Shown here in pieces: positions 31,325-59,709 of a stretch of 64,000 nucleotides of DNA (its first letter is position 1; each line of letters opens with the position of its first letter). Location of the stretch: the NCBI GenBank assembly GCA_044892505.1, contig CM097882.1, positions 569,098,001 through 569,162,000 on the forward strand, in the 5' to 3' direction. The position numbers were made by a program, and so were the translations under genes. Source of the stretch: Schmidtea nova (taxonomy: Eukaryota). The notes under the pieces were generated by a model. The model was not told where the DNA came from, did no database searches, and saw only the letters and a list, made by a program, of their open reading frames with translations.

Positions 31325-32763
31325 TNNNNNNNNNNNNNNNNNNNNNNNNNNNNNNNNNNNNNNNNNNNNNNNNNNNNNNNNNNNNNNNNNNNNNNNNNNN
31401 NNNNNNNNNNNNNNNNNNNNNNNNNNNNNNNNNNNNNNNNNNNNNNNNNNNNNNNNNNNNNNNNNNNNNNNNNNNNNNNNNNNNNNNNNNNNNTTGGTCT
31501 AAAAAGGCAAAAATATTGTACTAATTTAAACAATAAATACAAATAATAACCACAAAAACATTCAAAAAAACCTAAATTAAAAATTAAAATAAAATAATAA
31601 ATAATAATTACTAAATTTCCAGCAAAGGAAGAAAATCAAATTGACACAAGAACGAGCAGTATGGGGGTCTGAAATAAGAAAATTACCAATAAAATCAAAT
31701 AAAAGTACAATTAATTGGTTAATTACTTGAAAAAATCGAGACCACCCAGCGAGAAATCTGAACCGGAAATTTAAAATGGTTTATATTAAAATAAAATAAC
31801 AAAATTACTTTGATGGACGGCCTGATCCTGATTGGTCAATCTGACCAACTGGATCAGTATAAATACCGATCCAAAAATCATACAGATAACATCTAAAAAC
31901 TTAGCTACCGAACTGATTTATCATAGTCAACTTTGATACGATAAATACTGTGAAAATTTTTGGAAAACACTGCATCGTGGATTGAAACAGTAAATTTTCT
32001 TTTGTATTGTATTTTGCATAAATTTTTATGATATGTTTCATGATTCCCATTTGTTTTATTTAATATAATTTATTACTATTACTCTATTTTTCTTATGCCA
32101 TTATTTTATGATATAATAAATATACTTCCTCAGTAGCTTACGCTGCGAGGGAGCAAGCCGTAAATGTGGGATTTCACCGTTCCACAAGATGGTGAGCAGA
32201 GTTTCTATTGGTATTCTTTATTTAATTTAATTTTATCGGAAATTTCACGGTACGGTAAAGTTGTGCAGGGACAAGGACACGAGTGAAATTTGTAGACAGT
32301 GGTTAACATTTACATTCGATCAGACAGGCGAAAACAAACTATAACATAAATTATCAGGTCGACTAGATCGATTTTTTCATATACACGCAAATTTTTATAA
32401 ATCAACATAGCTGATCGAAATAATGTCCGGACACACCGAGACGATTTCGACGTTTCAACTACAGTTTAATTTAGACATAAACAACGACATATTCGGATCG
32501 ACCCTACTGATTAAATAAGTAAAATCGTAACCTGATCGCTGTACATAGCGCAGGTAATAATAGGTAAATTTTTAATATTCCGATCGCTGTACATAGCGAC
32601 GGTGTTAATTGAATAGTTTGGAAAATATTTTTTTTTTTTTCATTCTCCCTTTTCACATTTTTTTTTTGTGTTATTGATCAACGAGCAGAGCACTTTTTAT
32701 CAGGTCTCACAAAAATTTACGGATTTATCACAGTAAATTCTATTAGCATTATTATTTTCGCAG

Positions 32764-33264
32764 ATGAAATCAACGATACTGGATGAATTTCTAACAGCTC
32801 AACGTCATGTGGCACGGGTCGAGAATCCTCTAATCCGGACGCAACGGAAGAAATTGAAGTCGCTTCCACAGGAACTCCTCAGAACGCTAAATGCGTTGAT
32901 GTATAAATGGAGAAGGGAACTAGGAAAGAAATGCCCATTTTCGATTTGGGCCGGTGGATTGGATACCATCGTATATCGAGGAGGCCCCGGATGGGAAATT
33001 CAGGACGAAAGAGACCGGGAGACGACAGCTCTGTTCGTCATAGTGGTGTCAGACAGTGAAGGAAATCCAACGACAGTGATCCATTGGGGATATGTCTCAC
33101 CCCTCAAGTTGCTTCAATTCGGGTTGATTCCGAATCACCTACCAAAAACATGCCATGAGCGTCCCAAACTCAACTGTTCAATGGCTCACCTCCGACGAGA
33201 TCCAGTAAATCGCGGGTTGCATATTACTCCCGTACACGGCCTCAAGCGAAGTGTTTTCCACTAA
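32764..33264 (+). CDS. LTR-encoded ORF A, 166 aa, unknown function
   Basis: ATG ORF preceded by pyrimidine-rich TTTTCGCAG; more GC-balanced than its flanks; identical protein in the 3' LTR. Confidence 0.7.
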   Translation: MKSTILDEFLTAQRHVARVENPLIRTQRKKLKSLPQELLRTLNALMYKWRRELGKKCPFSIWAGGLDTIVYRGGPGWEIQDERDRETTALFVIVVSDSEGNPTTVIHWGYVSPLKLLQFGLIPNHLPKTCHERPKLNCSMAHLRRDPVNRGLHITPVHGLKRSVFH

Positions 33265-33447
33265 ACATTATATTCACATTTTTATAAGCTAAACGATTTC
33301 AATAAATTAAATGGTGTTGATCCGTGTTTTGTTTGTTCTTAGTTAAATTTATTTCTATTTATTTAATCATATGATTTTTACACTCGACGGATAATATTAA
33401 TCTTGGTAACATGTTTGATGCATTATAAATTGGGTTTGTTATTTAGT

Positions 33448-34038
33448 ATGACGGAAACTAGCCAACAGCGAGAATTGGACAAGGCGTGGAGAATCCGCCG
33501 AGCATTGGAAAAGGAGCTAAACCAGGAAAAAGCCTTACGAGCCAAAGCAGAAGCTCAGATTCAGCATTTACGGACCAGCTGGTTCGCACCAGCTCGCATG
33601 AAGGAGCAGATGAGTCGGACAGAAAGGGCTCAAAAGACAGCTGACGATTATCGGACCGAATGGGAAGCAACAAAAATTGAGTTGCGCCGATGTCTCCATT
33701 CGGTGACGACTTCATTTATCGAGTCCGAATTGAAAGCACAAATCCGACCCATTACTTACCAGAAATGGGTAGGAGAACAGAGAGTGGCCTGCTCAGTCAG
33801 TACAGACACCGATGGACTCGAGGCAACCACAGTGCAGAATCGGGTGGAAACCACCACTGTACCAAACCCCGTCGGAAAAACGAATAAGCGGAAACGAATC
33901 GGCTCCAAGCGCCGTCGCCAAAGAAAGCTGTTTTCACAACAATTGCAGACACAAGTAACCACTATGGCAGAAATGTCGGAGGCCGAGTGGTTATCAGAGA
34001 TATTCCCTCCAGAAGGAATTTTCAAAGAATTTCTATAA
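33448..34038 (+). CDS. LTR-encoded ORF B, 196 aa from the first ATG; coiled coil plus basic NLS-like tract
   Basis: MTETSQQRELDKAWR...; KRKRIGSKRRRQRK; preceded by TTTAG; identical protein in the 3' LTR. Confidence 0.72.
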   Translation: MTETSQQRELDKAWRIRRALEKELNQEKALRAKAEAQIQHLRTSWFAPARMKEQMSRTERAQKTADDYRTEWEATKIELRRCLHSVTTSFIESELKAQIRPITYQKWVGEQRVACSVSTDTDGLEATTVQNRVETTTVPNPVGKTNKRKRIGSKRRRQRKLFSQQLQTQVTTMAEMSEAEWLSEIFPPEGIFKEFL

Positions 34039-34524
34039 CAGATAGAATACGATGTCCGATTTGGGAGTCAATTAAATTTTTGCTCGTGTTTGTTTTGTTG
34101 TTGTTATTTCTTTTGTATTTCCTTCGATTAAATAATTCATATAATTAAAATTCAATTACCCGTCACACAACGAAAGAAGTAGCGATAAAAAGAACTTAAA
34201 TACTATCAAATTCGTAGTTTGGTTTTGCCTGTTTGTTTTGTTTTTGATAAATATATAGCCTCACACACACAAAATAGAACAATAATTGCGTAAGTCCTTC
34301 TACGGCCGCGTGAACCCGTAAGCATAAAGGGGGAGTAGTCCTAGCAATAGTGCTCACCTGCCCCTCATTGCTTAACCACCCTGCGCATCACCAACTTGGT
34401 TATCAAGGGAAATAATCAAGGGCGCTCGAGTGTAGATTACGACTATTTATGCATGATCATGGATGGGAGATCCCTAGCAATCATTAAAATTTTTACCAAA
34501 CCGTCCATGAACCCAGCATAAATT

Positions 34525-34542
34525 TGGGGGCTCAGCCGGGAT
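34525..34542 (+). promoter_or_regulatory. Primer-binding site, tRNA-Pro type
   Basis: TGGGGGCTCAGCCGGGAT matches the canonical Pro PBS TGGGGGCTCGTCCGGGAT at 16/18 positions. Confidence 0.85.
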
Positions 34543-34851
34543 CAACTTCGTTTTATCGGAAAATTGTGAATGCAAAATCTGCAGAGAAGTTTAAAGTGCT
34601 CGTGTCGTGTGAATAAATTTAATAAAAACAGAAAATTGGTAATTAAATCTAAATGATGTACAAAAATAAACAACAAACACAACAGCAAATAAAGGTAAAG
34701 TTATAAAAATCGAAGGCATGCATAAATAATTTGTCGGGACGACAATTTTTGGAAACACGGGGAGAGTAAATAAATGCTAAAAGATGCAAAACGAAACATA
34801 TTACTACGTTAAAAATTAAATTCACAAAACGAGACATATTACTACTTTAAA

Positions 34852-35355
34852 ATGATAAAAACAACTAAGTTAAAACGATTATTTATTCAGCAAATGGAGG
34901 AAAAACTGAAAGAAATCGAAGAATTTCTCAACACAGAAAACGAAACATTAGCAACAATTGGCAAGAAAATAAACCGATTTAGAGAAATTGAATTTCAAGA
35001 ACCCACAACACAGACCGAGGAAACAGATGAATTAATAAAGATAACAGAAAGAACAAGTAAAATCGACATAAAAACCCGCTACAAATGGTACCGAGCACGA
35101 CTAGAGAATGCGGAGCTAAACATTAGATGCAGACAAATAGAACAACAATTAACCCCAACATACAATCGATGGAAGGCGCAAGGGGTAGAAGCAGCGAAAA
35201 AATACCGACAGTGCTATATATGTGAAAACAACGAGATACAAATTATGTTTTTACCTTGCGGACATTTCCGTTTTTGTAAGACCTGTGCCAACAAGCGTGA
35301 CCAGTGTCCGATGTGCAACTTTACTGTGAATGAAAAAATTATGGTTTATTTGTAA
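34852..35355 (+). CDS. Coiled-coil plus C-terminal C3HC4 RING protein (IAP/RNF34-type RING), 167 aa
   Basis: CYICENNEIQIMFLPCGHFRFCKTCANKRDQCPMCNFTVNEKIMVYL; AATAAA at the stop codon. Confidence 0.9.
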   Translation: MIKTTKLKRLFIQQMEEKLKEIEEFLNTENETLATIGKKINRFREIEFQEPTTQTEETDELIKITERTSKIDIKTRYKWYRARLENAELNIRCRQIEQQLTPTYNRWKAQGVEAAKKYRQCYICENNEIQIMFLPCGHFRFCKTCANKRDQCPMCNFTVNEKIMVYL

Positions 35356-35831
35356 TAAATGTTTAGAGTTGATTAGTAAAAGGTCGAATGGTGAATCATG
35401 GGAACAATCATAGTATTTAAATAATTTTTGAGCTACTGCAAAGTAGTCCGATAAGAATCCATTGGGGGGTACCGATTGATCAACCTAGTCAGGGTGTATA
35501 GAAAGGGGCCCATCGCAAATGTTGGAAAATTTTTGTGATGTGATTGATCACCACATCCTGCATTAATGGACCAACGCGATCTTTTTGTATATTTTGGTTG
35601 GGGAGAGAGATAGGGAAATCTTGATGGAGTAAAGCGCGCATAGAGAAAAATAAATAAAAAGTTGAAACAGACTGATCAGGAAATAGTTATAATAGAACAA
35701 AGAAATAAACGATAGTGTTGAAATAATAAAAGGTGCATAGTCAGCTCGCATAGAAGTAGTTATAACTCAGCTGAGAAATTTTAATCGCTAGCGAAGTTAA
35801 GATTTGTGATTAACCGGTTAAATAAAGTTAG

Positions 35832-36064
35832 GAGATTTGTCCCTTGAAACAAAGGGTTATGAGATTTGTCCCTTGAAACAAAGGGTTATGAGATTTGTCC
35901 CTTGAAACAAAGGGTTAAGAGATTTGTCCCTTGAAACAAAGGGTTAGGAGATTTGTCCCTTGAAACAAAGGGTTATGAGATTTGTCCCTTGAAACAAAGG
36001 GTTAGGAGATTTGTCCCTTGAAACAAAGGGTTATTAGCGGTTTGTCCCTTGAAAAAAAGGGTTG
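35832..36064 (+). repeat. 29-bp tandem array, 7 near-perfect copies plus 1 degenerate (GAGATTTGTCCCTTGAAACAAAGGGTTAN)
   Basis: Units start at 35832, 35861, 35890, 35919, 35948, 35977 and 36006. Confidence 0.97.
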
Positions 36065-36232
36065 AGGCCAATGAGCCATATTGAATGACCTAGCTAGGCG
36101 TTATGGAGAGATTAAATTTAGGCCACGAGAGCCATTTGAGAGATTAAATTGAGGCCAATAGAGCCATTTGAGATAGTAAAATGAGGCCAATAGAGCCATG
36201 TGAGATATAAAATTGAGGCCGGAAGAGCCATA
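36062..36232 (+). repeat. 32-bp degenerate tandem array (TGAGGCC...GAGCCAT), about 5 units
   Basis: Units at ~36062, 36117, 36149, 36181 and 36213. Confidence 0.85.
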
Positions 36233-36848
36233 GTGAACTATAGATATATCCGGATAAATAGTAATAGAGGGAATATAGACCCATAGTGTAATCGTCGACG
36301 AGATTTAGAGTAGTGCGCACTAGTAGTTAAGAGAATGCGAGTAAAGCTGACTATGCAACCTTGAGTAAAGCATGCAAGGAGAATAGTAAAAATTTTTTTT
36401 GGGCTGACCGGAACAACCGGCAGAATAAGTAAAAACGATTGCTAGCAGGGAATAATGAATAGAAATGATAAAATAATGATAAACGAGTCAGAAAGACTCA
36501 GGGAATTAGAGCGCTCGAGCGACCAATAAATTGGGAAACTGTGGGAAAAGTAATGGATTTGATAAAACATAGATAATTATTACGACATAAATAGATAATT
36601 GTGACCAGTCTATAGATAATTTAAATAGACTAAAAATAAAGGGGAATCTGGGAAGGGGAAAATAATGAAAACCCAGTAATAAGTAATCCCGAAAGAAAGG
36701 GAATAAAAGCGCGACGATAACAATAAGGTATCGTTGAGGACCTTTGTATTTTAGATATACAAATCAATCAAACCAATCAAGCAACAAGAAGAATCAGAAA
36801 AACGATAATAGATAGGACAAGAAAATTGATAATATAAAAGTAATCCAG

Positions 36849-39800
36849 TTGAGAAAAGGAGCAAAGAGTGTCGCAATAAAGCCAACAAAAAAGCAGAAAG
36901 CCGGCAAAGATAACCACAAAAACCCACAAGGGAGTAAAGCGAGGAAAATAATAAGAGATAAATCAATTATCGAAAACGATAAATTGTCAGTAGTAAGCAA
37001 CAGCTCAAGTAACAAAGAAAACCAAGCGGAACCCAAGGAGAACCAAACAAGCGAAATAGAAAGCGACGAAACTAACAACGATAATATCGAAGAATTAGAA
37101 AACGAGGTAGAACCAGAGGTAGAAACCAACGAGAGTGATAACGAAAGTATAATATCAGATAACATAATAATAAGAGAAACTGAAAGCGATTCAAGCTCGA
37201 GTGAAACAGAAGACGAACACAACAACGAATTAGAAACAAGAAGAAACGAAAGTAAAATAACTCAAGACAGCGGAATTGAAATGAGTGAACCAAGAGAAGA
37301 AATAAAGGATAAATTCCCAGGAGAACCATTCAACGGAGATGCGAGTAAATTAGAAATTTTTCTAAAGGAATTTGGCATATTCGTGGAAGTATGCAAATGG
37401 AAAGCTGAGACAACAGCAAGTAGAATACAGTTATATTTGAAAGATAGCGCATTGGACCTATATTTGGAAGCAAAAAACGGTACCAATCCACCTACAAGCT
37501 GGACAGCGATAAAGGATTTTTTCCAACAAACATTTGGAATAAATAAAGTGCTGAGCGAGGCATTCATAGAATTCTCAATGAGGAAACAAAAGATGAATGA
37601 ATCTAATGCGGTATACGCAAGCGAACTGAAAAAATTAGCAAAATCGGTATTCAAGGATGGAGGTCCAATAAACGAGGAGTTAATGGCAGCTATCTTCATA
37701 GGAGGACTAAGAAGACCCGACATAAGAGCGCAAGTAGGATGTCAAGGATGCAAAACCATAGATCAAGCGTTAGAAACAGCTAACCGATTTGAATTGCATA
37801 TGATAGGGAGCGAAGGCAGAATTTATTTAGCCATGGACACAGCGCAAACCGAACCAGAAGTAAATCTCAACAATCACATTCCAAATTCGCAACAATTAAA
37901 CCGACCACCCCCTCAACGAAGGAATGAAGGAAATAAAGCGCAGAACTTTGAAAGCCAAAACAATTACAACCCTCCAAGACAAACAAAACAATGTAAAACA
38001 TGCGGGAAGTTAGGACACTGGCAGCAAGAATGCTATCAAAATTTGAATTGCGGAAAATGTGGAGTTAAAGGACACTCGGAAAGCAGATGTTCTACAATAA
38101 TCTGTTTTAATTGCGGACGACCTGGTCACTATTCAAGAAATTGCGGACAAAAAAGTAATCAGCGAGGAAACTGGCAGAGTAATGGGAACCGACCAAATTA
38201 CGGAAATCAAGCAAATACCGTAAACCGACCAGATTATGGAAACCAACAAAACAACAATAACAATAATCAGAACAAAACCACCCCCAAAGAAATTCATTTG
38301 ATGCAAGAAGTTCAAAGGTTGACGGAACTCATAAACAATACGACGAGAGGAAATCCGCAAACCAATCAACAACAAATTAGCATGATGAGAAAAATAGAAA
38401 GCGAAAACGAACGATTGAATCGAGAAAGTCAAGCACGACACGCTCAGGAATGGGCAAGAATACAAAGAGAGGATGAACAAAAACAGCAAGAAAGAGAACG
38501 ACAACCTCTAAGAATTAACATGCTAAGAGCAACAAACCAAACAGACACTCGCGAGAAAGAAATCACACTGGAAATGAATTCGATAGACCCGAATCCAGCC
38601 GACAACGAAAGTCGAAAAGAAATAGTACAAAAAGATGAAGAAGTAGAAAAAGAAGCAGAAAAGGGAGTGGAAACCGAGATAAACCAGGAAGAGAGGAAAG
38701 AGATTTGGAAAAAAGGAATGATGGTAATCATGCCCAACGACCATATGTTTCGATTCCAATATAACGCAAAAGAAGAAGTGAAAGTATTATTCAACAAAGT
38801 AAACCAGATGATTCCAGGAGTAACGAAGCTGCCCAGAGAAGCGTTCTTACAAATAGAGGGTGCACCATCAGTAAAATTGAAATTAACGGATATATGGGAA
38901 AACATGGGAGTAGTAGAAACAAAAAGAAATGTGATGAGAATTAAAGAAATAGAACCAGAAGAAATTCCACCACCAATACGTCACGAAACCCGAATCCGGC
39001 GAATATTTGAAGGAAAAATGATAAGAAGACGTTTAAAAGAGATAGACGAGTTGGGAAAGAAAATGGAAAAAGTCGAAGTAATAGAGGACAAGAGTGAACC
39101 AACACTAGAAATTGACAAAAACGAACCAGAACCAACGGAGAATATACAAGGAGAAACGAACCAAATAGCACATATTAATATGCTAAGAAATACCACCAGA
39201 GAGTTTTCCGATGAAGAAGAAGATAGTGACATCAGTAGCTTAGCAGGAGACATATTAAATGAATCCGAAGACGAAAATAAAGAAAGAGAAGTAATAAAGA
39301 CCTCAGAACCTACACAGATAAAAGTAGATGAAATCCAGAAATTACTAGATAACTCGCTAGAAGTAATATATAACGAAGAGTTCATGGACAAGAAACAATA
39401 TCGGAAATTCATGAAAGCATTACTACAAATGAACTACAAAGAATGGTTACAAGACCGGGAGGTAGACATGTTGAATCGATACGTAGGAAAATTAATAGAG
39501 GAACCACTCCTCAATTACACCATCTCAATAATAATAAATACATCTACACCAAGAATCTGGATCAAAACTCCATTTACAGACGATATCTACAGATGGGTAG
39601 AGGATAGACTAGGGAGCTCATACAAAAACAAATTCATCTATTCGCAGAATAGACTCGTAAAGAAAAGAACGCACTTAGTAGAAACAGGTATATGGCCAGG
39701 AGAAATAACTCTGTTATCAATATGCGATGAAAAGGAAGAAGAGAACCTACAAGAAGTTGCAAGGGAGGCAAACACGTGCTTCGAAAGGAGAATAAAACCT

Positions 39801-42800
39801 CGGTTAGAATACGAGAAAGAACGAGTCTTACGAAAGAATCTGAATTCCCTGATAGAGCAAATCATACCACAAGTCAAAAAACATAGAAAGGAGTTAATGA
39901 GAAGCGAATACGAGAAATTGAAACAATGTATTGAGTGCATACGTGACACAAGTCACACGAGATGGTCACAAATCTCACACGACAAATTAATCGCAAAAAT
40001 GGGAAAAACAATCTTCAGACAAGGGAAAATAACAGATCTAAAAATTTCAGTGGAATTGCCTAATGAAGACACCAAAGAAATTGAAGTAGTAGCGGATTGC
40101 ACCATTAAAGAATTAATAAATATCATCAACGAGACACTAGTGCAAAGAGAACCAGAAGACGAATGGGAAGACGACATAATCATACAATATAACGAACATG
40201 TATTATGGGATCACGATGAGAGACGACTATATAAAATCGGTATATGGGATAATCACCAAACCATCCACGTTATCAGAATGGACGATACACCCAGAGAAAC
40301 TGCTAAAGATGAGAAAAGAGAACGGGAACGACGGAAAGAAGTTGTGCGCAAATTACAACAAATAGTAGACATCTATCGAAATTGGCGAATTTGGCCAGAG
40401 TGGGAAAATGTATTAGGAGAACTCAATCTCAACAGACGAAGACGAACACCCGTAGAAAAACAATGGAACGAGAAAGGAAAATGTTGGGTACCAAAGGAAG
40501 GGGAATATGAAGAAGAATATGAAAGAGGAATGGAAGATGACTGCGAATCAGAAATGAGAAGGGTTTGCATGGTGACAAGGAAAGCTACGCCAATAGACCT
40601 AGATGGACCAGAAACAGCGGCTATATGGGTAGAAAAGGAAAAACAAAAAACGGAAGAATTTGTCGAAATATTAAAAACTAATGCGCACGGTAAGAGAAAA
40701 ATAATAAAAGGTCTCGCAGATTTTTTCGTGGTTAATGGAGAAGATATAACATGCTTGCGTAAAGTGGCAAAGGCAATCGCAGAATATAAAAGAGTTAACG
40801 AGTGGTGCCCGGAACAACTAGACCACGTAATTAGGAAATGGAGAAATCAAGAATTCTCGCAGGAAATTCCACAAAAAGTGCATTTAAGAATAATATATCC
40901 AAACAAGGATAAGGAAGAATTGTGGGTAGGAATAGCAGAAAAAATTCGAGATATTAAAAAGAAATTGAGATACGAACCACCATTCCATTTACAACACCAA
41001 GGACGATCATTAGATAACAGTTTGGAAATCGGAATAACGCCAGTACAACTAGACCTCATGAATACCTTGACAGTAGAAGCAATAGCAGGTCAACCATTAA
41101 AACGTAAAGAAGAAAACCATAAACCACACGGAAGTATAAGTACGCCGAGCCCGATGGAATTAGTACCAACGACAGGGACAAGTTCAAGACGATCTGAGAC
41201 AACACCCAGAGGGAATAGAGAAATGACTCCACCACAACCCTACGACGTGGACGAAATTTTAACAGACAGCGACGATATGATAGAAGAATTAACCGAACTA
41301 ACAAAGGAAAAAGACGATAACATTTTCGAAAGAATACAAGAATTACCTACGACTGTACAAGTAACCAACACCGGAGAAACAGAAGTCGAAGAAGAGATAA
41401 TAATAGAAGAAGTAAACGATTTGACGGAAGACGAAACAAGAGGAGCGAATGTCGAAAATGTACGATTAACACAAGAAATGGAAAGATGGTTGGAAGAAAG
41501 AGCTAACGAACCAAGAGATGTTACGGAAGAAACCGGACGAGCAACAAGATTTGTGGAAACGGGTACAGGAATGGATAGACGACCTCGAGGTAGACCCAAG
41601 ACAGATCCGGCAAATGTAGTCATCAGAAATAAGGATGAAAAGAGACAAGATCAATGGGAAGTATGTTTAAAGAAATTAAATAAAATCGCGGAGATAAAAG
41701 AAAAAGAGACAACACCAATATGTCAAGGTGAGGAATGGATATCGAAAACAATAATGGAAATATTGGCAATAATTGATCCGGAATTGAAAAAATACTGGCG
41801 CATAACTGAGATAAGCGAAAAGGCGAAGTCATTGCACAGCGCAATTGCACCCATCTTACCGGAATTCATAAAAGAAAAGACGAAGTCAAATCATTTAGAC
41901 TGGCAAGGAACCACTACGTTAATAAAGAAACTGACAGAAGGAGCGGAAACAGATAACAAATACGTAATAGCCATTGCATACACGATCTACAATCTGTTGA
42001 CACTGAGTAGAGGTCGACCAAAACCCACTGCATTAGAGAGACATATAAAAAATACCGCAAAGATTATAACTAGAGAAATAGAACCATACATCATTAACAA
42101 AGGAGGATGGGAAACATTTATCAAAACTAACCAGAAGAAAACGCAAGCGAAGAATATGAAAAAGAAATTCGAAAAAATATTGGAAGAGTTAGAAAAAGAA
42201 CAAACAGGAACAGGGAACGCGAAGTCATCAATGAATTTGAGTTCTATAATAATGATGATGTTGATATGGATGATTAGCACCGATAGCGCAACAGCGTTCG
42301 AAGTGTTTGATTGCGACCAAATGAAGTTAGGAGAAAAGTATTCATTGAGAGGCACGGAGCAATGCAAAGATGCAACTCCAGTAGAGTTGCAAAAGATTAA
42401 AAAGGAACAATGGTACCACGTGTATCAAGAAGCAGAACTCATAAAGACAATGGTGAATGAATGTAAGGTGCAGAAGACGAGATTCGCATTCTACTGCGGG
42501 AGAGGACATTATTCAGCAATTGTCATGCCAGGAACGGAAAGAGAACCAATCGTGTTACAAGGAGAGGACTGCGAAGCACTGTTTAAACATGGAGAAGTAA
42601 CAACAAGAGATAAAATCAAGATAAAAGGAAAGCCAGGAATGATGATGCAACAGACGTACTATGTAGCAGGACGGATTACGGGAGGAGAAGGATATTGTCA
42701 AGGAGAAACCTACCCGATGTTCGGAACACTCGCGACCAACTTAGTGGTGATGGATACGTATATAGTCGAACTAAAAAGCTACGAAGCATTTTTCGAACCA

Positions 42801-45800
42801 ACAACGGGAGAAATGAAAACGTTATCCATGTGTAAAATCGACAGGAGCATGTGTCAAACGGGAATGTCAACATTAGTGTACAAACCAAAGGTAAACGAAT
42901 GTCAGTTACAACTACTACAAGGAGCAAAGTTCGACGAAATCCAAGGAAAAACGTTCCAGGAAGAAGACGATGACGACAAAGATAGAGCAAAGCATCTCAA
43001 GGAAGCTTTAGAGAATAAAAGACAACTGAAACCAGATCATAGAGAAAAACGAATAGAAATGAGAGCCACACCAACAGTGTTGATAACCACAAATCAAGAT
43101 GTGGGAATGAGATTCATAAAAGGGAAAGCAACCCTTAAGTGTAGTACAACGGTATACGAAACAAATTACCCAGGAATATATGTGTCAAAACAAGAAGTGC
43201 CAAATGCGAAACCCAAAATCGACACAATGGATATCAAACTACACTTGTATGTGAATAATAAAATGGATTTCCTATTCCATAGAGGACAAGCCTCATTACA
43301 AAAAGTGTACTACGATTTGATAAATAATGATTGTATACTGAATCGAGAAATATTAAAGACAAAGTTGGCCGTAGCAATTACGAATCCAGATAGCGCGATG
43401 CCATTATTACCACTGAGAGAAGGACATTTCGGAAGAGTGGTTGGAGAAGCAATGTATGTATACATTTGTGAAAAGACACACGCATCGCTAGCAGCAACAA
43501 CACAGTTGAAACCTGGAACCTGTACAAATGAGTTAGAAATCGACTACAAAGGAAAAGTACGATACGTTCAACCAGTGACGAGAATCATCAATCCACCAGG
43601 GTTTGAACCAAATCCATTCAACTGTAGTAATGCGTATGGACCGCTTTATCAAAAACCAGATGGTAAATGGGTTATGTTCCCAGGAAGATCCGAAGTGATA
43701 GCACCAAGAGAATTCGAATTAATGCAGTTGTCAAAGGATAGACAATTCAGCGACGTAGATGTCTCAAACAACGGAATATATAGTCCAAAGGATTTAGAAG
43801 CAGCAAGGCAGAATATATTATTCCCAGCAAGAAGAGAAGCATTATTGTCAAATATCGTAACGATAACGGGAGGAACGGATTATCGAGAAGGACCGAATTA
43901 TGAACTGTTGTTGTCACCAGCACATTTTAAGAAAGCCACAGAAAACATGATGAAAGCAATGTGGGGAAGATTTCTGATATTCGGACAAATGATGGCCGGA
44001 ATACTGGGAGTCATATTAATAATCCAAATTGTCAGAGTGATAATAACGCAAATGTTAGCGTGTTTCGATATCTACAAGAGAGAAAAGAAAGTGAATTGGA
44101 AAATGGTGGTAGGGTTTTTACCATTCCTTGCGAAAACGATGGTGTTACACGGTCACTCAAAAGATATCCACCGAATAAAAAGACTCCTAAAGATACTAGC
44201 AAAAATGAAGGGAACAGATGAAGAAGTAGGACGAAAATTTAAAAAGATAATGAATGACGAACAAGCAAGACAACAGCTCAAGAGAGAAAGAAAAGGTTTA
44301 TGGGAGAGGGTGAAAGGATATAAAACCCAAAATGATTCGAGTGACGACGATGATGACGACGACGACTATAAGGGAGGACAAGTGTATAAGAACCAAGCAC
44401 CCCAATACATTGAAAAGAATCCAGCCGACGCGTGGAAATGTTACGCACCTCCACCAACAATGTACCAAGAACCACTACAAGGAGGAAAAAATAGCACAAT
44501 GCAAATGATGCCAATGACAAATGTATACCCCATGATACCAGAAGATTATAAAATGAGAAGATGTAGAAGCGTAGATCCACAAGGAGATACACACACGATC
44601 GCAGTAATGTCATCAAACACAGGTCCAGTACTAACCACGACAATAGAAATTAACGGAAGAGAAATCGAAGCAATGATCGACACTGGAGCAAATATTTCCG
44701 CCATCGATATCAAATGGATACCACAAGAGCAAAGACGAGATATAGAAAGGACAAACGTCCACGTAATTGCATGTAGCAAAGAAGTTGTAGAAGTAGCAGG
44801 GAGATGGTGGGTAAAAATACGCCACTTAAATACAGAAATCGATACGTACGTAGCAGTCATACCAGCATTAAGCGTACCTTGCATTATCGGAACAGATTTG
44901 ATGCCAGCATTATTTAAAGAGATTGTAATCGACCTCGGAACAATGAGACTAAAGGATCGCACAGGACAAATATGCGCAATAGAAGCCAAAGTGACAAGTT
45001 CAAAGCAAATGATAATACCCGCAAGAAAGGAGAAAATATGTTACGTAAAAATAGATCCGACAATCCAAGGGGATATGATTTTCGAACCAAGTAAGAGATT
45101 CGAGAAAAGAAAAGCGTTGCCAATGGCAAGAGGACTAGTCAACATAAACAATAATGGGGAAATCCCAATAAACGTAGTAAATTTCGACGAGGAGGATAAA
45201 ATAATCTACGAAAACGAAAGATTAGGCAAACTAACCCCAATGATGGATATCGAACTACCAATAGCAGGAGCAGAGAAAGATAAAGAACCAACATGGAATA
45301 TTGATAGTGAACTACTAAATGAAGATCAAAGGAAGCAGTTAGAAAAACTTTTGATGGAGTATAAGGATATATTTGCAGCATCCGATTTAGATCTAGGAAC
45401 ATGTGATGTCACGTTACATACGATACCATTAACCGACGAAACACCAATTGCATTAAGACCATACAAATTAGCAGAAGCACAGAAAGCAGTAGCGGAAGCA
45501 GAAGTGAAGAAAATGTTGGATGCAGAAGTAATCGAACCAAGTTGTTCACCCTGGCAATTTCCAGTAGTAATGGTAAAGAAGAAAGACGGAACACAGAGAT
45601 TCTGCATAGATTATCGAAGATTGAATACAGTGACAAAACGAGATACTTACCCATTACCAGACATCAACGAAATGCTACTAACATTACAGGGAGCAGCATA
45701 TTTTACATCGCTAGATCTAAAAAGCGGATACTGGCAAATAAAAATGAAGGAAGAAGATAAAGAGAAAACTGCCTTTACCATCGGTAGAGACCTATATCAA

Positions 45801-48800
45801 TTTCGAAAGATGCCCTTTGGATTAACAAACGCACCAGCATCATTTCAGAGATGCATGAATTTCGTCACCCATGGAATAAAGCAGTGTATGGTCTACATTG
45901 ACGATTTATTAATCTACTCTAGCACGTTTGAACAGCACATACAGGATATTCGAGATGTATTCGTTAGACTTAGACAATGGAAGTTAAAACTCAAGCCATC
46001 CAAGTGTGATTGGGCGAAAGAGAAAGTAACATTTTTAGGACATATAGTGTCAGCAAAAGGAAAAGAACCGGATCCTAGAAATATCGACAAAGTAAAGGAA
46101 TGTCCAGTACCAAAAACAATAACCCAGATACAAGAATTTCTTGGACTATGTGGATATTATAGAAAGTTTATAAAAGATTACGCCGGAATAGCAAAACCTA
46201 TACAGGAACTAGTAAAGAAAGATGTATCCTTCATATGGGGAGACGAACAACAAACAGCTTTCGAGACATTAAGAGATAAACTGATAACCGCACCCATATT
46301 GGTACACCCAGACTTCAAGAAGCCATTCTTACTTGCAACAGACGCAAGCGGATATGCAGCAGGAGCAGTATTAGGACAATACGACGATGAAGGAAAAGAA
46401 CGCGTAATCGGATATTATAGCCGGACATTCAAAAAGCATGAGAAAAATTACTCAGTAACCGAGCGAGAAGCGTTAGCAATCATACTAGCAATTAAACACT
46501 TTAAATATTTATTATGGGGACACATCATCTGTATAACCACAGATCACCAACCGCTTGTGTGGTTAGGACAACATAAGGAAACCTCCAGTAGATTAATGCG
46601 ATGGGCAATGCAGCTACAGGAGTACTCACCAGACATAAAATTTAAATCAGGACGAGCGAATGCGAATGCAGACTGTATGTCCAGACTGACATTTCCGGAA
46701 TTAACCGACCCGGATGTACAACGAATTTGTGTATTAATAGCAGAAGATTTAGATTTTAGTGAGTTAAAGAAAGATCAACAGGAAGACAGAGAGTTAGGAC
46801 AGATCATAGAGTTCCTAACATCTCGAAATATGGAGGTATTCAAAGATAATAAAGAATTAAAGGAACATATAGGAAAATATCAACATCGATATATAATAAA
46901 TAAAGGATGGTTATTGATACAAGACGGTGAAAAGAGGCTGATGTGTTTACCGGAAAACAGAAGGAAAGAGATAATGATCCAATACCACGATGGGAAATTA
47001 GGAGGTCATATGTCAGAGAAAAAGACAATAAATCGGATGAGACAGAAATATTATTGGCGAACAATGGAAGAAGATATAAAAGAATGGATTAAAAATTGCC
47101 TAACCTGCGCAACTAGAAAGGATAGTGGGAGGAAATGGAAGAACCCGCTGCAACCAATGCCGATACCAGCAGAGCCAATGACAACTATAGCAATGGACGT
47201 AATAGGACCATTACCAGAAAGCTTAAACGGAAACATTTACATACTAGTAATAACGGATTACCTGACGAAATTCCCGGAAGCATTCGCCATGCAAGATCAA
47301 AAAGCAAAAACCGTAGCAAAAATTCTAGTGGAAGAAATATGCTGCAGATATGGAACTCCAAAACAAATACTCACAGACCAAGGAACTAATTTTATGAGTG
47401 AGTTATTGAACGAGGTGACAAACTATTTCAGAATAGCGAAATTGAGAACTTCACCATATCATCCACAAACGAATGGTCAAACAGAGCGATTCAATGGCAC
47501 ATTGATTAGAATGTTATCAAACTATGTCAGCAGACACCAAACTGATTGGGACGAATACATAAAATTATGTTTAATGGCATACCGAATGTCGATACATGCC
47601 GCAACAAAACTAAGCCCGTTTCAACTTATGTATGGCAGAGAATGCAACATGCCCATAGATTTGGAGTACCAGCCACCATTATCGCAATATATGGAAGATG
47701 ACGACTACGTAACCAAATTCAAAGAAAGAATGCAGGAAATATGGAAAACGGCAGAACTTAACATTAAATTTTTTCAGGAAAGTTATAAGGACCTACACGA
47801 CCAGAAGAAAAATGTTAAAGCGAACGATCTAAAACCAGGAGATTGGGTGATAATAGAAACTCCCGAAATAATACCAGGAACGGTTAAGAAACTCCAAAGA
47901 CCTGGAAGAGGACCTTATGAAATTATATACAAAAAGGACAATAATGCCAAAGTTAAGCTAATAAACCGACCATTAATACGACCCATATATGTAAACACCT
48001 GCAGATGTAAGAAGGTGCCTAAAACGATAACTACAACACCAGAGAATCGAATAATAACCAGATCACAAACAGCCAGGATAAACATGCTCAGAGCAAACAC
48101 CAGCGAAGACGACAAAACAGAAATAAGGCAAAAAGAAATCAGAAATAAAGAAGTCCTATTGAAGGCGAGAGAGATAATGGGAAGATGGCATGTTAGAGAC
48201 GAAGCAGGCATATCAAGGGACATTAGACACATAATTAGCCGTTACGCACAAGGATTACCAACCGAACCAATTATTTCTGAATTATTGATAAAAATCCCTG
48301 AAATACTCTTATTAAAAGATGTAGGAGGACAACCAGCCTTACATAATGCGATTCAGTGTAAAAACATTGAAAGAGCAAAAGAATTCTTGAAAATCGCAAA
48401 AGAAACAAACCAAAACCTAGACGTTGGGAATCGTGAACAGGAAACTCCATTAATGACAGCAGCCATCTACCAAGCAGATAAAGAAATGGTAGATCTGTTG
48501 ATAAAAGCTCGTTTCAGTTGGACAGAACGAGATAGAGAAGATAAAACAGTGCTAAATCACGCGATATGGAGTTCTCACCAACTTATGTTGGAATATATAA
48601 TAGCAAACTCCACGTGGGAAATAGACGAATTAATAAAAGGAGACCTTATCAAAGAGGCAATCAAAATTGGCAAATGTAATACGATCCGTAAGTTAATCGA
48701 ATGGAAACGACCAGAAGAGGATACATGGGTCTTAGACATAAACGAAGTATACAGCGAAGGACAAAACGCACTGTTGAGATACCTTTTGAAATTTACTTGT

Positions 48801-51800
48801 GATCAGAAGACATTACTAACCTTATTAGACAGGGGAAACATAAACATCACAAAGAATGAAGAAGAACACAAATTCGATAAAGAGAAGGAGGTCTTATTCA
48901 ACAAAATTAGGAAATGGTGTGCGAAACCACTTGATAAACTAATAACATACAAAGACATAAATAATTTTAACGATAAATACCAGACGATAGTAAGTGAGTA
49001 CGAGGAATTAGTAAAAATCTTAAACCATCCCGAAAAATGCAAACAGGTTTTGGAGAGAAAAGAAAGAGAAAGTAACAAGAAACTCACACCACTCTTCAAA
49101 GCAGAAGCACCATACCAAGCGAGACTAGATGCGATACAAGAAAAAGCAAAAGAATTGTTACCGGAATTCGAGAATAGTAAACATGCACTAGAAATACTCG
49201 GCGCATTAGTTGAAAAAGTACACGCATACGCAAAAGGAACATACAATGGTAACGACATAGTAATAATAAAAAAGGAGATGCCAGTAACATTCCTATTACC
49301 AAAAGACGGAATAATGCCCATACATAGAGCTCTACGAAATGGCAAAGATAGGAAAGTAATGGAAATTGCAAGAGTAATGCTAAATTGCGGAAGCAATATG
49401 AATATGATAGACGAGAAAGGAGATACGCTTATGGTATTTGCAGCAAGGGCCAAAACGAAAACAAAGGTATTAGAAGAACTATACAAAGCAGGTGCAGGAC
49501 TTACAGGAAAGACAGATAAAGATAATTCGATATTGGATGTAGCATTATTAACACACAATTGGGAAATGGTCAATTTCATTAAAACCGTCCCAAATCAGGA
49601 AGAAATAGATCACCTAACTGATACGGTCAAGAAACCCAGTGTACTAGCAATGATGAACAACGTCGAACTAACAGAATCAATACTTACGTGGATAAATCCG
49701 AATACTAACGAACCAGCATTCAGGATTAATAAGTTTACAGAACATAACCAAAACTGGTGTATAAGAAGTGCCTTAATAACGTATAAATGGCCAGAGATAT
49801 TGAAGATGTTTATGGAAAGAAAGGATCTAAGAATCACAACCAGCCCGAAAGAAGAAAAATACACAGGCAAATGGAAAGAATTAATGAAGACATACATCAA
49901 CAATTGGATTAAGGCCAAAAAGGAAATCTTGGAACATAAATCCACTAACAAAGTAATACCGGAGCAGGTAGAAACACAAGAATTTGAGGCAAGTAATCTA
50001 ACGACATTAGCGTATGCGAAACTAATAGAAGAAATCAATGTCGAGGACGACATTTTCGACGAGCCAGGGGGAGATGACAACACAGATAGTGACGACGGTA
50101 ACAACTCAGAAAATTCAAGCGATCACGAACCACCCGATAAAGGGGAAAACGAGAGAAAAGACAAGAAACGAGACAAGGAAGGAAAGAAAGGTGAAGACGA
50201 AAAACAAAGAGATGAAGAGAGAAAACAAGGAACAAACGACCAAGGAGATAAAAATGACACCCAAAGAACAGGTTATAAATCAACCATAAAACCATTCTTC
50301 AAACCAGAATTACTATTATTAACAGTGATTTTAACGTTAATTAACCCAAGTCAAGGAATGACATGTGAAGAAAGGGCAATAATACAAATAAAAAACGCGA
50401 AAGGAATCGAACGAGTATGTTGGTCAAAAAAGGACAAAATCACGGAACAAAATAGTCCGATGGATTGCAGAATCTCAAAACACGAGCAAGAGATCATAGA
50501 GATCAATGACCTAGATCTAAATACCTGGTACAAAATATGCACCGTTAGAAAACAAAAGCATCCAAGATCACACAACACCATCGCATGTGCAAAATACCAA
50601 ACACCTAAAGCAGCCATGACAATACAACAGTCACCCAAAGGAGATTACATCATCGGAAAATGTGGAAGGACAGAGACACAGGGAACAGAAAACAAAAAAC
50701 CCCAGGCAACAGATAAGCAAACAACACCAACCCTACGAATTACAATAGAGAGGCCTGAAGCAAGAGTTGCCACAAACGAAACCGAAAGAGTGTCTTACCA
50801 AATGGAAGTATTATGTTTAGCACTCATACTAATAATGATAAAACGATTAGAGGAAGGAATAGAAATTGAAACTATGACAATAACAGAAGTAGAAGATACA
50901 CAGAGTACTAACATAAAATGTTGGGCGAGAAATAACGAGGAAATCGGCGTAAACGAAATAAGGAAAAGTCGAAAACCAACAACGAATAAAGTAATTAAAA
51001 TATCCGAAGTAAAAGCAGATAAGACGTACAAACTATGCCTACTAGAAAAAGAAACGAACAAGAAAGGTACCACAAAATGTAAAACATTTCAACCCGGAGA
51101 AGTAATAAAGTTCAGAAGGAGAACGAGGAAGAGAAATAAACAAATCAAGCGGAAAGTAAACATAACATTAGAAATAAAAGAGATAGAACCAAATGTGAAA
51201 GGAGTATGCTGGAGGAAGTACGAAAAAGAAGTAAATAAAAGAACGACACCACAATGTCGAACAAACACGGGAACAACGACAATTCAAATAAAAGGTTTAA
51301 AAAGTAAACAAACCTACGAAATATGTCTGGTAAAGGAAAATGATCAGATAACGATAAACGATCTAGAATGCGGAATATATACAACTTCATCCGGAACAAG
51401 AACCAAAACGTTAACACGGAAAAATAAAAGGAAACAACAAAACAAAGGAAAACCGAAGTACACCACTACCTTTAAAAACAATAAACAACCAACAAAACAA
51501 GAAGTTACGACGAAACCCGAGAGAAAAACATCAGCAACTCTAACATTATGGAAAATAGAGAATAAAACATTGAAAATATGTTGGATAATAGTACAGAAAC
51601 ATATAAGAAGACAATCAAGAGAGTGCAGAAAAACAAATAAAGAAATCAAGATCGAAAAACTACAATTTAATAGCGAGTACGAAGTATGCGCAATAGAAAA
51701 AATGGACGCACTAGGAAACCAACAAGAAAGATGCGAAACCTATTATACACCAGCAAACGCGACATCAAAAGGAGTAGCAAGGAAAATCGAATTCAAGGAA

Positions 51801-54334: not shown

Positions 54335-55711
54335 ATGGACAGAGAAGAACGAATAATCGAAATTTTGAGATTAGAAAACAGAAAATGGAGCAAGAGGCTC
54401 ACATGCGGAAAATGTAACAATTTATTACGAGAACCCAGACAAACGATATGTGGATGTAGAATATGTACAAAATGTATACAAGAATTAGATGCAACAGGAA
54501 TAACAACATGCCCAGAATGTAAGGAAGGAAGAATAGTGTTGGACGAAACCAGAACGGACAAAGCAACCCAAAGAGAAATTATGAGCACCACAACGGAGTG
54601 CGTAAATACACCTTGTACATGGCAAGGACAAATAAGTAATCTAGAAAATCATATGGAAAAGTGCGAGGAGAAAAGAGCCGAATGCGAGAAGTGCCAACAA
54701 ACAATAATTCTAAAGAAGAGAGAACAACACAAGGACGAATGTAAAGAAGAAGAAATCGCATGCGAGTATTGTGAAACTCGAGAAACAAGGGGAAAAATCG
54801 AAGAAGAACATTTGAATATAGCAGAGGAGAAAGTATGCGGACAATATGTAAGTAAATGTCCAAACAATTGCGAAATAACAGAAGAAATAAAGTTACATGA
54901 ACATTGGAAAGTATGTACCGAAAGGCCAAGAGAATGCCCATATAACAAGCATGGATGCAAGGAAAAGCGGACGCGACAAACAATGAACAAACACCTAGAA
55001 GAAGCAGCACTAACGCATGTGGAAATGACAAACGAAACGACAAAAGAAACGGAACAGACAATCCAGAAATTAGAAAAAGAAGTAGAATCACATAAGATAA
55101 TGATGAGTTTACTACTAGAAACAAGAGAGCAGTTTGAACTAACTCGCGAAAGAATGGAAAAGAAAATAATAGCCATAGAAGAATTAGGAAAAGGAATGAA
55201 AATACAATATAATCAATTAATACGAGAAATTGACGAAAGAAGGGACTTACCAATCGCACCTTACCTATGGAAAGTAACAGATTTCAGAGACAAACTAGCA
55301 GAAGCCAGAAATATGACGAAAACAGCAGTAATAAGCCCACCATTTTATTTATGGAAAAACGGGGTGAAAATAAGATTGAAAGTATACCCAAATGGAGACG
55401 GAAGAGGACAAGGAACACACGTGTCAATATTTTTCTCGCTATGTAAAGGAGAATACGATGACCTAATAGAATGGCCCTTGAAAGTAGGAGTCATTATAAG
55501 AATCAAAAGTCTGGGAAAACCAGTAGAAAAATTCTTTGAAACAGACAAACATACGAGTACAAGTGAAAAACCAACAACGGAATGCGGACTAGCAGCAGGA
55601 GAACCAATGTTTATAAGGACAGAAAACCTATGGGAGCGACTATATGCAGACACGCTATACATAGAGATGGAGAGGCATGAGAAAACAGACAGAAAAGGAT
55701 GGTTGGCGTAA
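54335..55711 (+). CDS. TRAF: Full-length intronless TRAF-like protein (RING, TRAF zinc fingers, coiled coil, MATH)
   Basis: RING CGKC...EPRQTICGCRICTKC...CPEC; Zn fingers H..KC...C..C; MATH YLWKVTDF...SPPFY...KVYPNGDGRGQGTHVSIFF...GEYDDLIEWP. Confidence 0.95.
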   Translation: MDREERIIEILRLENRKWSKRLTCGKCNNLLREPRQTICGCRICTKCIQELDATGITTCPECKEGRIVLDETRTDKATQREIMSTTTECVNTPCTWQGQISNLENHMEKCEEKRAECEKCQQTIILKKREQHKDECKEEEIACEYCETRETRGKIEEEHLNIAEEKVCGQYVSKCPNNCEITEEIKLHEHWKVCTERPRECPYNKHGCKEKRTRQTMNKHLEEAALTHVEMTNETTKETEQTIQKLEKEVESHKIMMSLLLETREQFELTRERMEKKIIAIEELGKGMKIQYNQLIREIDERRDLPIAPYLWKVTDFRDKLAEARNMTKTAVISPPFYLWKNGVKIRLKVYPNGDGRGQGTHVSIFFSLCKGEYDDLIEWPLKVGVIIRIKSLGKPVEKFFETDKHTSTSEKPTTECGLAAGEPMFIRTENLWERLYADTLYIEMERHEKTDRKGWLA

Positions 55712-55823: not shown

Positions 55824-56885
55824 ATGGGAAATATAGAAGTAACCTTACAAGAAGTAACCGTACATCAAGACGAAATGATCAGAAATCACATGGAGCGGAT
55901 TGGGATATGGATTCACGCCTATTATCGTAAACAGGAAGAATTGGAAAGACAAACCGAAGTACTAAGAGAAGCTGAAGAAAGGAATCAAAGAAGTAGAGAA
56001 AAAATAGAGGAAGTCTATAAATTACTGAGGCAACAAAACGAATACTACAAAGGAATGATGAAAGAGCGACGAGAGGATAGAGATAGACAACAGATAAAAA
56101 CAGACCACAAGATCCAGTCAATCACCGAACAAGCAAGATATTGGAAGAAAGAGGCAAAAGACTCTTACAAGGAAGCAAGGGAGATAATTGAACGAACAGC
56201 GTATAGCGATGATTGGAAACTGTTTAAAGAGATCGATGAATTAAAAGAGGAATTAGGGCAAAAGATCAGTCAAGAAGCGTCAAATAAGGTATGGAGTAAG
56301 AAAAGACAACAATTCATCAGAGAACAAGCCAAGAAAATTAAAGAACTAACTTATCAAGTGCAAAGAATGGGAGATGATTTAGCCAATCAAGAACAGTTAA
56401 AAGGTATGCTGACCGGAATGTGGAATCACAAGGAGGAAAACATGAAAAGAGATATAAATGGATATCAAGGAGTGATTACCCAGAAGAAAATAGAATTAAA
56501 AAGGACTAAAGAAAGAATGGAAGAAACAAAACAGAGTTATGAAGAAAACATAACCAACTTGACAAAAGAAAACGAAGATCTGAGAAAGAAACTAACAGAA
56601 AAACCAGTACCCACAAAGGAAACAAGTATCACAGCAGCAGTGACCGAAATGATAGAGAAAGAAGAGAGAGAGAAAAAATTAGCAGAACTAGAAAAACAAA
56701 TAGAAACCCTAACAGAGCAGGCGAACTATCTGGAATACTTATTAGATGAAGAGATCCAGATATCCCACACGTACCGAGAGGAAGTGGAAATGTGGAGGAG
56801 TACGGTAATATGGATGCCACTCCCCATAAACCAGGTGGAACCTCAAGACGAAGGTTTTCACGAACCTAACGAAACCCTCGTGTAA
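55824..56885 (+). CDS. Long coiled-coil protein, 353 aa
   Basis: E/K/Q-rich heptads along most of its length; TATAGAAATG start context. Confidence 0.85.
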   Translation: MGNIEVTLQEVTVHQDEMIRNHMERIGIWIHAYYRKQEELERQTEVLREAEERNQRSREKIEEVYKLLRQQNEYYKGMMKERREDRDRQQIKTDHKIQSITEQARYWKKEAKDSYKEAREIIERTAYSDDWKLFKEIDELKEELGQKISQEASNKVWSKKRQQFIREQAKKIKELTYQVQRMGDDLANQEQLKGMLTGMWNHKEENMKRDINGYQGVITQKKIELKRTKERMEETKQSYEENITNLTKENEDLRKKLTEKPVPTKETSITAAVTEMIEKEEREKKLAELEKQIETLTEQANYLEYLLDEEIQISHTYREEVEMWRSTVIWMPLPINQVEPQDEGFHEPNETLV

Positions 56886-59526: not shown

Positions 59527-59709
59527 ACATTATATTCACATTTTTATAAGCTAAACGATTTCAATAAATTAAATGGTGTTGATCCGTGTTTTGTTTGTTC
59601 TTAGTTAAATTTATTTCTATTTATTTAATCATATGATTTTTACACTCGACGGATAATATTAATCTTGGTAACATGTTTGATGCATTATAAATTGGGTTTG
59701 TTATTTAGC

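What the first reader, a model, noticed from the sequence alone, without database searches (positions are those of the whole stretch)
42297..44060. Chuvirus-type glycoprotein embedded in frame upstream of protease and RT
Seen: FEVFDCD...YSLRGTEQC, ECKVQKTRFAFYCGRGHYS, NNDCILNREILKTKLAVAITNPD...GEAMYVYIC and a TM at ~43971-44058. From memory these match the motif order of chuvirus glycoproteins (xxxYDC, CKV.I.R...YCG, C.LERQ.L...L.LA...PD), which are also captured by some BEL/Pao elements. Established: env normally lies 3' of pol in its own ORF. Here it sits between gag and pol in one polyprotein, which forces equimolar synthesis and a membrane crossing, with PR-RT-IN returning to the cytosol after the TM.
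Basis: partly seen in the sequence, partly recalled or inferred. Interest (0 to 1): 0.86.

Follow-up and report, generated by a model that had tools for sequence, protein, structure and literature searches.

The report
Giant flatworm retrotransposon with built-in envelope
This is a recently copied, 29-kb Burro-type retrotransposon, likely of a planarian. Its one giant protein carries a conserved viral fusion-protein domain between gag and pol, a layout published in 2019, plus predicted fibronectin-type membrane modules that we found in none of the papers searched.

Summary
The stretch lies in one 5,647-codon ORF of a ~29.3-kb Ty3/gypsy LTR element and matches Pfam PF24664 (Monjiviricetes fusion glycoprotein, E 2e-72). 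The order is Gag, Bcl-2-like, signal, env, TM, PR, RT, RNase H, IN, ankyrins.

Arkhipova & Yushenova 2019 described this in-frame env between BCL2 and PR in planarian Burro elements. An eLife 2026 survey classed S. mediterranea GAG-ENV-POL envs as HSV/gB-type. No BEL/Pao domain was found.

Added here:
(1) Env is under purifying selection like Gag and PR: piN/piS 0.033 in 24 intact copies, and 0.042 in 15 copies picked without regard to env. The family is still inserting (LTR pairs 99.8-100% identical, 4-bp TSDs).
(2) A rough estimate gives only two membrane crossings before PR, so RT is predicted cytosolic.

Fusion activity, virions and equimolar synthesis are untested. Verdict: a new member of a known kind.

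The parts
31494..34518 (+). 5' LTR (visible part; its outer end reads N in the window), ends in CA
   Evidence: 3,023-nt alignment to the 3' LTR at 99.87%; letters
34525..34542 (+). likely primer-binding site, tRNA-Pro-like (recalled, not confirmed)
   Evidence: just after the LTR end; matching host tRNA not found by two pattern searches
34813..35355 (+). upstream accessory ORF with C-terminal C3HC4 RING
   Evidence: PF13920 E 3.6e-12
35827..36231 (.). 29-nt and 32-nt tandem arrays in the leader
36816..53759 (+). single polyprotein ORF, 5,647 aa stop to stop (first Met 37281)
37281..38144 (+). Gag: capsid-like region and three CCHC knuckles
   Evidence: PF03732 E 1.9e-4, below cut-off; PF00098 E 8.5e-8; motifs
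41706..42140 (+). Bcl-2-like domain (weak match), GGW kept in 24 of 24 copies
   Evidence: PF00452 E 0.045, below cut-off; piN/piS 0.065
42219..42296 (+). predicted internal signal peptide ending A-T-A just before FEVFDCD
   Evidence: hydrophobic segment; equivalent segment before env in 6 other families or proteins; cleavage inferred
42297..43955 (+). env ectodomain, class III (gB/chuvirus-type) fusion glycoprotein family; 14 Cys, one N-glycan sequon, a REKR furin-like site at 43041
   Evidence: PF24664; Atlas; Cys, NCS and REKR each kept in 24 of 24 copies; piN/piS 0.033 and 0.042
43956..44060 (+). membrane-proximal helix and predicted env TM, followed by net positive charge
44637..44909 (+). 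aspartic protease
   Evidence: PF00077 E 1.9e-7; DTG 24 of 24
45573..46625 (+). reverse transcriptase and RNase H
   Evidence: PF00078 E 1.9e-37, PF17917 E 1.4e-38
46950..47465 (+). integrase (H2C2 and core)
   Evidence: PF17921 E 1.9e-20, PF00665 E 3.8e-11
48339..48608 (+). ankyrin repeats (best stretch; a second stretch follows)
   Evidence: PF12796 E 2.1e-15, two stretches
50304..52076 (+). membrane module 1: predicted signal, four FN3-like repeats, predicted TM
   Evidence: repeat alignment with invariant C-W..C..C; AF2 model of repeat 51153-51392 pLDDT 84; FN3 fold matches; TM
52302..53756 (+). membrane module 2: predicted signal, three FN3-like repeats, predicted TM, tail with QWPD kept in 24 of 24 copies
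   Evidence: weak PF24942 hit E 0.0015
54335..55711 (+). separate TRAF-like ORF (RING, zinc fingers, MATH)
   Evidence: PF22486 E 1.9e-20, PF02176 E 1.9e-7; unbroken in 22 of 23 fetched copies
55824..56885 (+). accessory ORF, coiled-coil-like
   Evidence: only a weak Filament hit, E 0.001
56965..57525 (+). accessory ORF with hydrophobic N-terminus and a TM-like segment
   Evidence: read from the sequence
57743..60778 (+). 3' LTR (visible part), starts TGTTGGG; each LTR carries two ORFs of 166-223 aa

Best explanation
The stretch is the envelope gene of a Burro-type Ty3/gypsy LTR retrotransposon: a conserved class III-family fusion glycoprotein domain encoded in frame between gag and pol, predicted to be threaded into the ER by an internal signal peptide and anchored by one TM, so that PR-RT-IN would stay cytosolic and the element would likely bud as an enveloped particle. 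Shown: the single ORF, the domain order, the family assignment, purifying selection and recent transposition. Inferred: signal peptidase cuts after A-T-A, releasing Gag-Bcl-2 on the cytosolic side. Env passes through the ER and is possibly cut at REKR. The element's own protease frees itself and RT/IN from the env tail. The ribosome re-enters the translocon for two further signal-FN3-TM modules. Env then likely drives spread between cells of the animal, for example from derepressed differentiated cells into stem or germ cells.
For: PF24664 E 2e-72 and Atlas hits to PF24664, rhabdovirus G, gB and gp64 clusters. Domain order as published for Burro. By eye, the env is closest to Smed_errantivirus_5 and _6, classed ENV_HSV. 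Env piN/piS 0.033 (95% CI 0.015-0.055) against Gag 0.042, PR 0.023 and RT 0.007 in 24 intact copies, with piS 0.11-0.22; 0.042 (0.026-0.062) in 15 of 20 copies chosen by another region. 14 of 14 cysteines kept in 24 of 24 copies. LTR pairs 99.77-100% in 10 of 10 copies; 4-bp TSD in 9 of 10 (6 by script, 3 read from the printed letters). Only four segments pass a rough insertion-energy estimate, and the helix after the env TM scores about +5. Signal-env-TM-PR-RT in one frame in four more own-genome families and in L169, at 35-39% env identity.
Against: No direct fold for this env: the single-sequence AF2 model failed (pLDDT 35), and sequence searches of the PDB found no fusogen. Topology rests on a rough scale recalled from memory; in two sister families the conserved helix after the TM is more hydrophobic (KD 2.1 over 15 residues). 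Purifying selection shows that env is used, not that particles form or infect. The ectodomain has only one N-glycan sequon.
Confidence: 0.8

Rival explanations
1. Env is kept not for particle entry but as a membrane tether or cell-fusion factor: it anchors Pol and capsid assembly on ER membranes, or fuses neighbouring cells, and no free virion forms.
For: The in-frame layout ties Pol physically to a membrane protein. L169 has a further signal-ectodomain-TM cassette between protease-like domains upstream of RT, so membrane passes are tolerated freely.
Against: The whole 553-aa ectodomain, not just the TM, is constrained (piN/piS 0.033; 14 cysteines invariant), which a mere tether would not need.
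Confidence: 0.12
2. Env and Gag-Pol are in practice made from different RNAs (spliced or subgenomic), so the shared frame says little about stoichiometry or topology.
For: Some single-ORF LTR elements use splicing or turnover to set Gag:Pol ratios (recalled, no call).
Against: No stop or frameshift separates env from gag or pol in 24 of 24 intact copies (these were chosen for a long frame) or in four other own-genome families; L169 has env and pol in one frame, its 5' end open. The internal signal and TM give an even number of crossings before PR.
Confidence: 0.15
3. It is a neutral chuvirus-derived insertion (an endogenous viral element) or a BEL/Pao-type capture carried passively.
For: The profile hit is to a negative-strand RNA virus family; mosquito Pao 'Anakin' elements carry such glycoproteins (passages).
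Against: Strong purifying selection; same position in families only 35-39% identical; no Pao domain among the Pfam hits.
Confidence: 0.02

Closest known systems
Burro / GYPSM1 giant Ty3/gypsy elements of dugesiid planarians (PMC6431247, section 7 read in full)
   Same: Giant single ORF; Gag with three CCHC; BCL2-like, then in-frame env, then PR-RT-RH-IN; ankyrins; MATH/TRAF; tandem repeats; about 30 kb; very many copies
   Different: 5,647 aa against 4,873 aa (Burro1); TRAF here is a separate downstream ORF; no BIR found in the ORFs scanned; two C-terminal signal-FN3-TM modules that the paper does not mention ('fibronectin' 0 hits). That paper likened the env to gypsy Env as well as mononegavirus glycoproteins; the hits here point to class III.
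Smed_errantivirus_1-6, GAG-ENV-POL HSV/gB-type errantiviruses (eLife PMC13524379; passages, section 5 part 1, section 6 part 2, supplementary rows seen)
   Same: GAG-ENV-POL order, gB-type env; _5 and _6 share visible motifs with this env, and the 3,401-aa own-genome family looks very close to _1 (by eye)
   Different: The main text has no hit for Burro, polyprotein, in-frame, splicing or fibronectin; this family is clearly diverged from _5 and _6 (by eye only).
Anakin BEL/Pao elements of mosquitoes (PMC7642597, passages)
   Same: Chuvirus-type glycoprotein captured by an LTR retrotransposon
   Different: Other superfamily (Pao) and host; in the passages seen, the BEL/Pao env-like genes named (Roo, Tas, Cer-7) lie downstream of the polyprotein
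Chuvirus / Monjiviricetes G, rhabdovirus G, herpesvirus gB, baculovirus gp64 (class III fusogens)
   Same: PF24664 match; Atlas neighbours; signal-ectodomain-TM with conserved cysteines
   Different: Embedded inside a retroelement polyprotein; no BLAST-level viral relative found

Membership tests
Ty3/gypsy LTR retrotransposon | Two LTRs TG...CA with short TSD | tested here: met
   LTR pair 99.87%; TG..CA and 4-bp TSD in 9 of 10 other copies; this copy's own outer ends read N
Ty3/gypsy LTR retrotransposon | Gag, then PR-RT-RH-IN order with gypsy-type domains | tested here: met
Ty3/gypsy LTR retrotransposon | RT phylogeny within Metaviridae | not tested
   no named reference RT sequences were on hand
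Burro elements | About 30 kb with a giant single ORF | tested here: met
   about 29.3 kb by LTR offset; 5,647 aa
Burro elements | BCL2-like domain then in-frame env then PR; ankyrin; MATH/TRAF | tested here: met
   (Bcl-2 weak, E 0.045, below cut-off); compared
Burro elements | BIR domain | tested here: inconclusive
   none in the 12 ORF pieces scanned; present in a related env-less family of the same genome; listed for Burro1 and, per the review, Burro-2 to -4
Burro elements | Direct sequence identity to named Burro1-4 | not testable with these tools
   Grohme 2018 not held; no Repbase
Class III (gB-type) fusogen | Profile match to a class III glycoprotein family | tested here: met
   PF24664 E 2.5e-73; Atlas 0.93-0.96
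Class III (gB-type) fusogen | Five-domain trimeric fold with fusion loops | tested here: inconclusive
   single-sequence model pLDDT 35; the eLife supplement lists an AlphaFold model for the homolog Smed_errantivirus_3
Class III (gB-type) fusogen | Membrane-fusion activity | not testable with these tools
   needs bench work
BEL/Pao (Anakin) | Pao-type Gag, protease and RT domains | tested here: not met
   no Pao family among the Pfam hits at E up to 0.05; RT motif YIDD
Fibronectin type III domain (C-terminal repeats) | FN3 beta-sandwich fold | tested here: met
Cytokine receptor (box-1 WPxxP, WSXWS; motifs recalled) | WSXWS motif and proline-rich box 1 | tested here: not met
   no WSXWS in the printed sequence; the P of module 1's QWPNI is kept in only 9 of 24 copies; module 2's QWPD is kept in 24 of 24 but lacks the later prolines

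The most novel reading that the evidence does not exclude
This Burro family is a complex, herpesvirus-like endogenous virus built as one multi-pass polyprotein. A gB-type fusogen does entry, and captured FN3 type-I membrane proteins act as its receptor-binding partners or as receptor decoys that signal with the element's own TRAF, Bcl-2-like and RING proteins to keep infected stem cells alive.
Probability: 0.2. Interest if true: 0.75.

Novelty: new member of a known kind. Interest (0 to 1): 0.3.

Why it matters
This family adds population evidence that the in-frame env is maintained as strictly as Gag and protease in an element still inserting at high copy number. That supports the open hypothesis that Burro elements are infectious endogenous viruses of planarians, in a laboratory-tractable group. 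The C-terminal FN3 membrane modules have no hit among 1.84 billion representatives and were not found in the papers searched. They suggest further surface proteins made from the same polyprotein.

Tried and rejected
- AF2 of env without an alignment: pLDDT 35, unusable, not fold-searched. The second and last job went to the FN3 repeat.
- PDB sequence searches with env or its alignment: no fusogen.
- Stand-alone env relatives in the protein database: none; two long polyprotein fragments found.
- Viral contigs: none. Metagenome contigs: none with the single query, three with the alignment.
- C-terminal 1,157 aa against 1.84e9 representatives: 0 hits. Atlas hits were FN3 proteins but all under 0.9, a lead only.
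- Expression: no RNA holder listed. Four runs of unknown kind were laid as contigs; none of the 15 listed joints (81 more not shown) had GT..AG ends. This is no evidence on splicing.
- Positive selection on the FN3 modules: rejected at domain level (piN/piS 0.18 and 0.32, upper bounds below 1). Site-level tests were not run.
- Cytokine-receptor mimicry via WPxI: weak.
- Host tRNA for the PBS: two patterns, 0 matches.
- Tree against chuviruses or Pao env: not done, no named reference sequences on hand.
- Grohme 2018 and Sacco 2022 not held; Grohme's extended data may already list the C-terminal domains.
- Earlier scan notes: nothing.
Full report
Observation. The quoted motifs are present at 42297, 42339, 42459, 43323 and 43443, and the TM-like segment peaks at 43989-44045. 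All lie in one stop-to-stop ORF of 5,647 aa, 36816-53759. The region matches Pfam PF24664, Monjiviricetes_fusion, at E 2.2e-72 and is the only family hit at E up to 1. ESM Atlas features place it at 0.93-0.96 beside PF24664, rhabdovirus G, gB-containing and gp64 clusters. The Atlas recognition value was low (1596), so this counts as support for the Pfam result and not as independent proof. A single-sequence AF2 model failed, so the fold of this env was not shown directly.

The element. Two LTRs align over 3,023 nt at 99.87% (31494-34516 and 57758-60778), giving about 29.3 kb. The ORF reads Gag with three CCHC, a long insert, Bcl-2-like (E 0.045, below cut-off), signal, env, TM, PR, RT, RNase H, IN, ankyrins. 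Two stretches of the insert look ubiquitin-like by eye only; Pfam did not confirm them. Separate ORFs encode a RING protein upstream and a RING-zinc finger-MATH TRAF-like protein downstream (unbroken in 22 of 23 copies). In ten other copies the LTR pairs are 99.77-100% identical and 9 of 10 show a 4-bp TSD around TG...CA ends. The script scored 6; three were read from the printed letters where it had mis-set the start; the tenth has a 611-nt flank duplication. The family is therefore recently active.

Copies and selection. The env search scored 78 of 3,618 candidates, all full length at 99-100%; 25 lie in frames over 5,600 aa. I used 24 of these (window plus 23), dropping one with a stop in env. 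Synonymous diversity is 0.11 in env and 0.15-0.24 in Gag capsid, PR, RT, RNase H and IN, so the protein identity is not due to youth alone. piN/piS with bootstrap intervals: env 0.033 (0.015-0.055), Gag 0.042, PR 0.023, RT 0.007, IN 0.013, Bcl-2 0.065, ankyrins 0.12, FN3 module 1 0.18, module 2 0.32. Because those copies were picked by env score, I repeated the count on 20 copies picked by the C-terminal region. Env gave 0.042 (0.026-0.062) in 15 of 20; two were dropped for stops, two as partial and one had no hit. PR gave 0.033 and RT 0.009 in 19 of 20. All 14 env cysteines, the sequon and the REKR site are kept in 24 of 24.

Topology (inferred). A hydrophobic stretch ending A-T-A precedes FEVFDCD, and an equivalent stretch precedes env in six other families or proteins; a seventh family shows it. 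On a rough insertion-energy scale (values recalled) only four segments of the ORF pass: env signal, env TM and two C-terminal TMs. The conserved helix after the env TM scores about +5, and net positive charge follows the TM in all seven sequences printed. The caveat is that this helix is more hydrophobic in two sister families. Equimolar synthesis is not established: no run on record as RNA was listed.

Relatives. The genome holds at least four more env-bearing families, with ORFs of 3,401, 3,393, 3,442 and 2,993 aa. Their env is 35-38% and their RT-RH 49% identical to the window's. All have the same in-frame order and end in a TM-bearing region after IN, with a signal-like stretch flagged in three of the four. 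Metagenome contig L169 has the same order plus a further signal-ectodomain-TM cassette between protease-like domains before RT. A BIR-bearing family with no env or RT motif keeps PR, ankyrins and one signal-FN3 unit 27% identical to module 2 (E 1e-7; 2 copies examined). The 3,401-aa family resembles Smed_errantivirus_1 closely by eye, so the host is likely a dugesiid planarian.

What is known. [quoted passage not shown] PMC8532177 (passages) shows BURRO1 RNA in differentiated cells after smedwi-2 knock-down. PMC7642597 (passages) covers Pao captures. FN3 modules in Burro were not found in searches, nor in the text of the two key papers. Grohme 2018 and Sacco 2022 could not be read, and figure labels are not held, so prior annotation is not excluded.

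Verdict. The feature is real and functional by selection, but the highlighted layout is published: a new member of a known kind. Interest is 0.3, carried by the selection evidence and the FN3 membrane modules.

Noticed in passing
window 50304-53756: Two tandem signal-FN3-TM modules at the end of the polyprotein; they evolve 5-10 times faster at protein level than env (one repeat falls to 76% identity between copies) but stay under purifying selection.
   Followed up: yes
window 50796-50855 and 52737-52800: A second signal-like hydrophobic stretch after the first FN3 repeat of each module, with no TM before it; well conserved; topology unexplained.
   Followed up: partly
L169:2-10282: Related polyprotein with three protease-like domains and a signal-ectodomain-TM cassette between them, upstream of RT; a DEDDh-type exonuclease ORF (PF00929, E 1.4e-5) follows. 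P0001 and P0002 also have two or three protease motifs.
   Followed up: partly
L198-L203 (G000:C1:531914092-531944091, 552686797-552716796): Very numerous BIR-bearing family (150 of 1,295 candidates scored) with PR, ankyrins, one signal-FN3 unit and TRAF-like ORF but no env, RT or IN motif in the two copies read: likely a non-autonomous Burro derivative.
   Followed up: partly
window 32737-34038 and 58999-60300: Each LTR carries two open frames of 166-223 aa with no convincing Pfam match.
   Followed up: no
L061/L062: One copy is flanked by a 611-nt direct duplication instead of a 4-bp TSD.
   Followed up: no
window 42770-44103: Summed contig depth in four runs is about twice that of neighbouring bins; may mean env is shared with further families; depth is not a copy number.
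   Followed up: no
L164, L166, L168 (ORF ends): The 3,400-aa families end in a TM followed by a tail ending YEETFV or YDETFV, which resembles a PDZ-binding end (recalled motif).
   Followed up: no
window 17740-20006: Overlapping ORFs of another element (DUF7041, E 6.8e-7), unrelated to the Burro copy.
   Followed up: no
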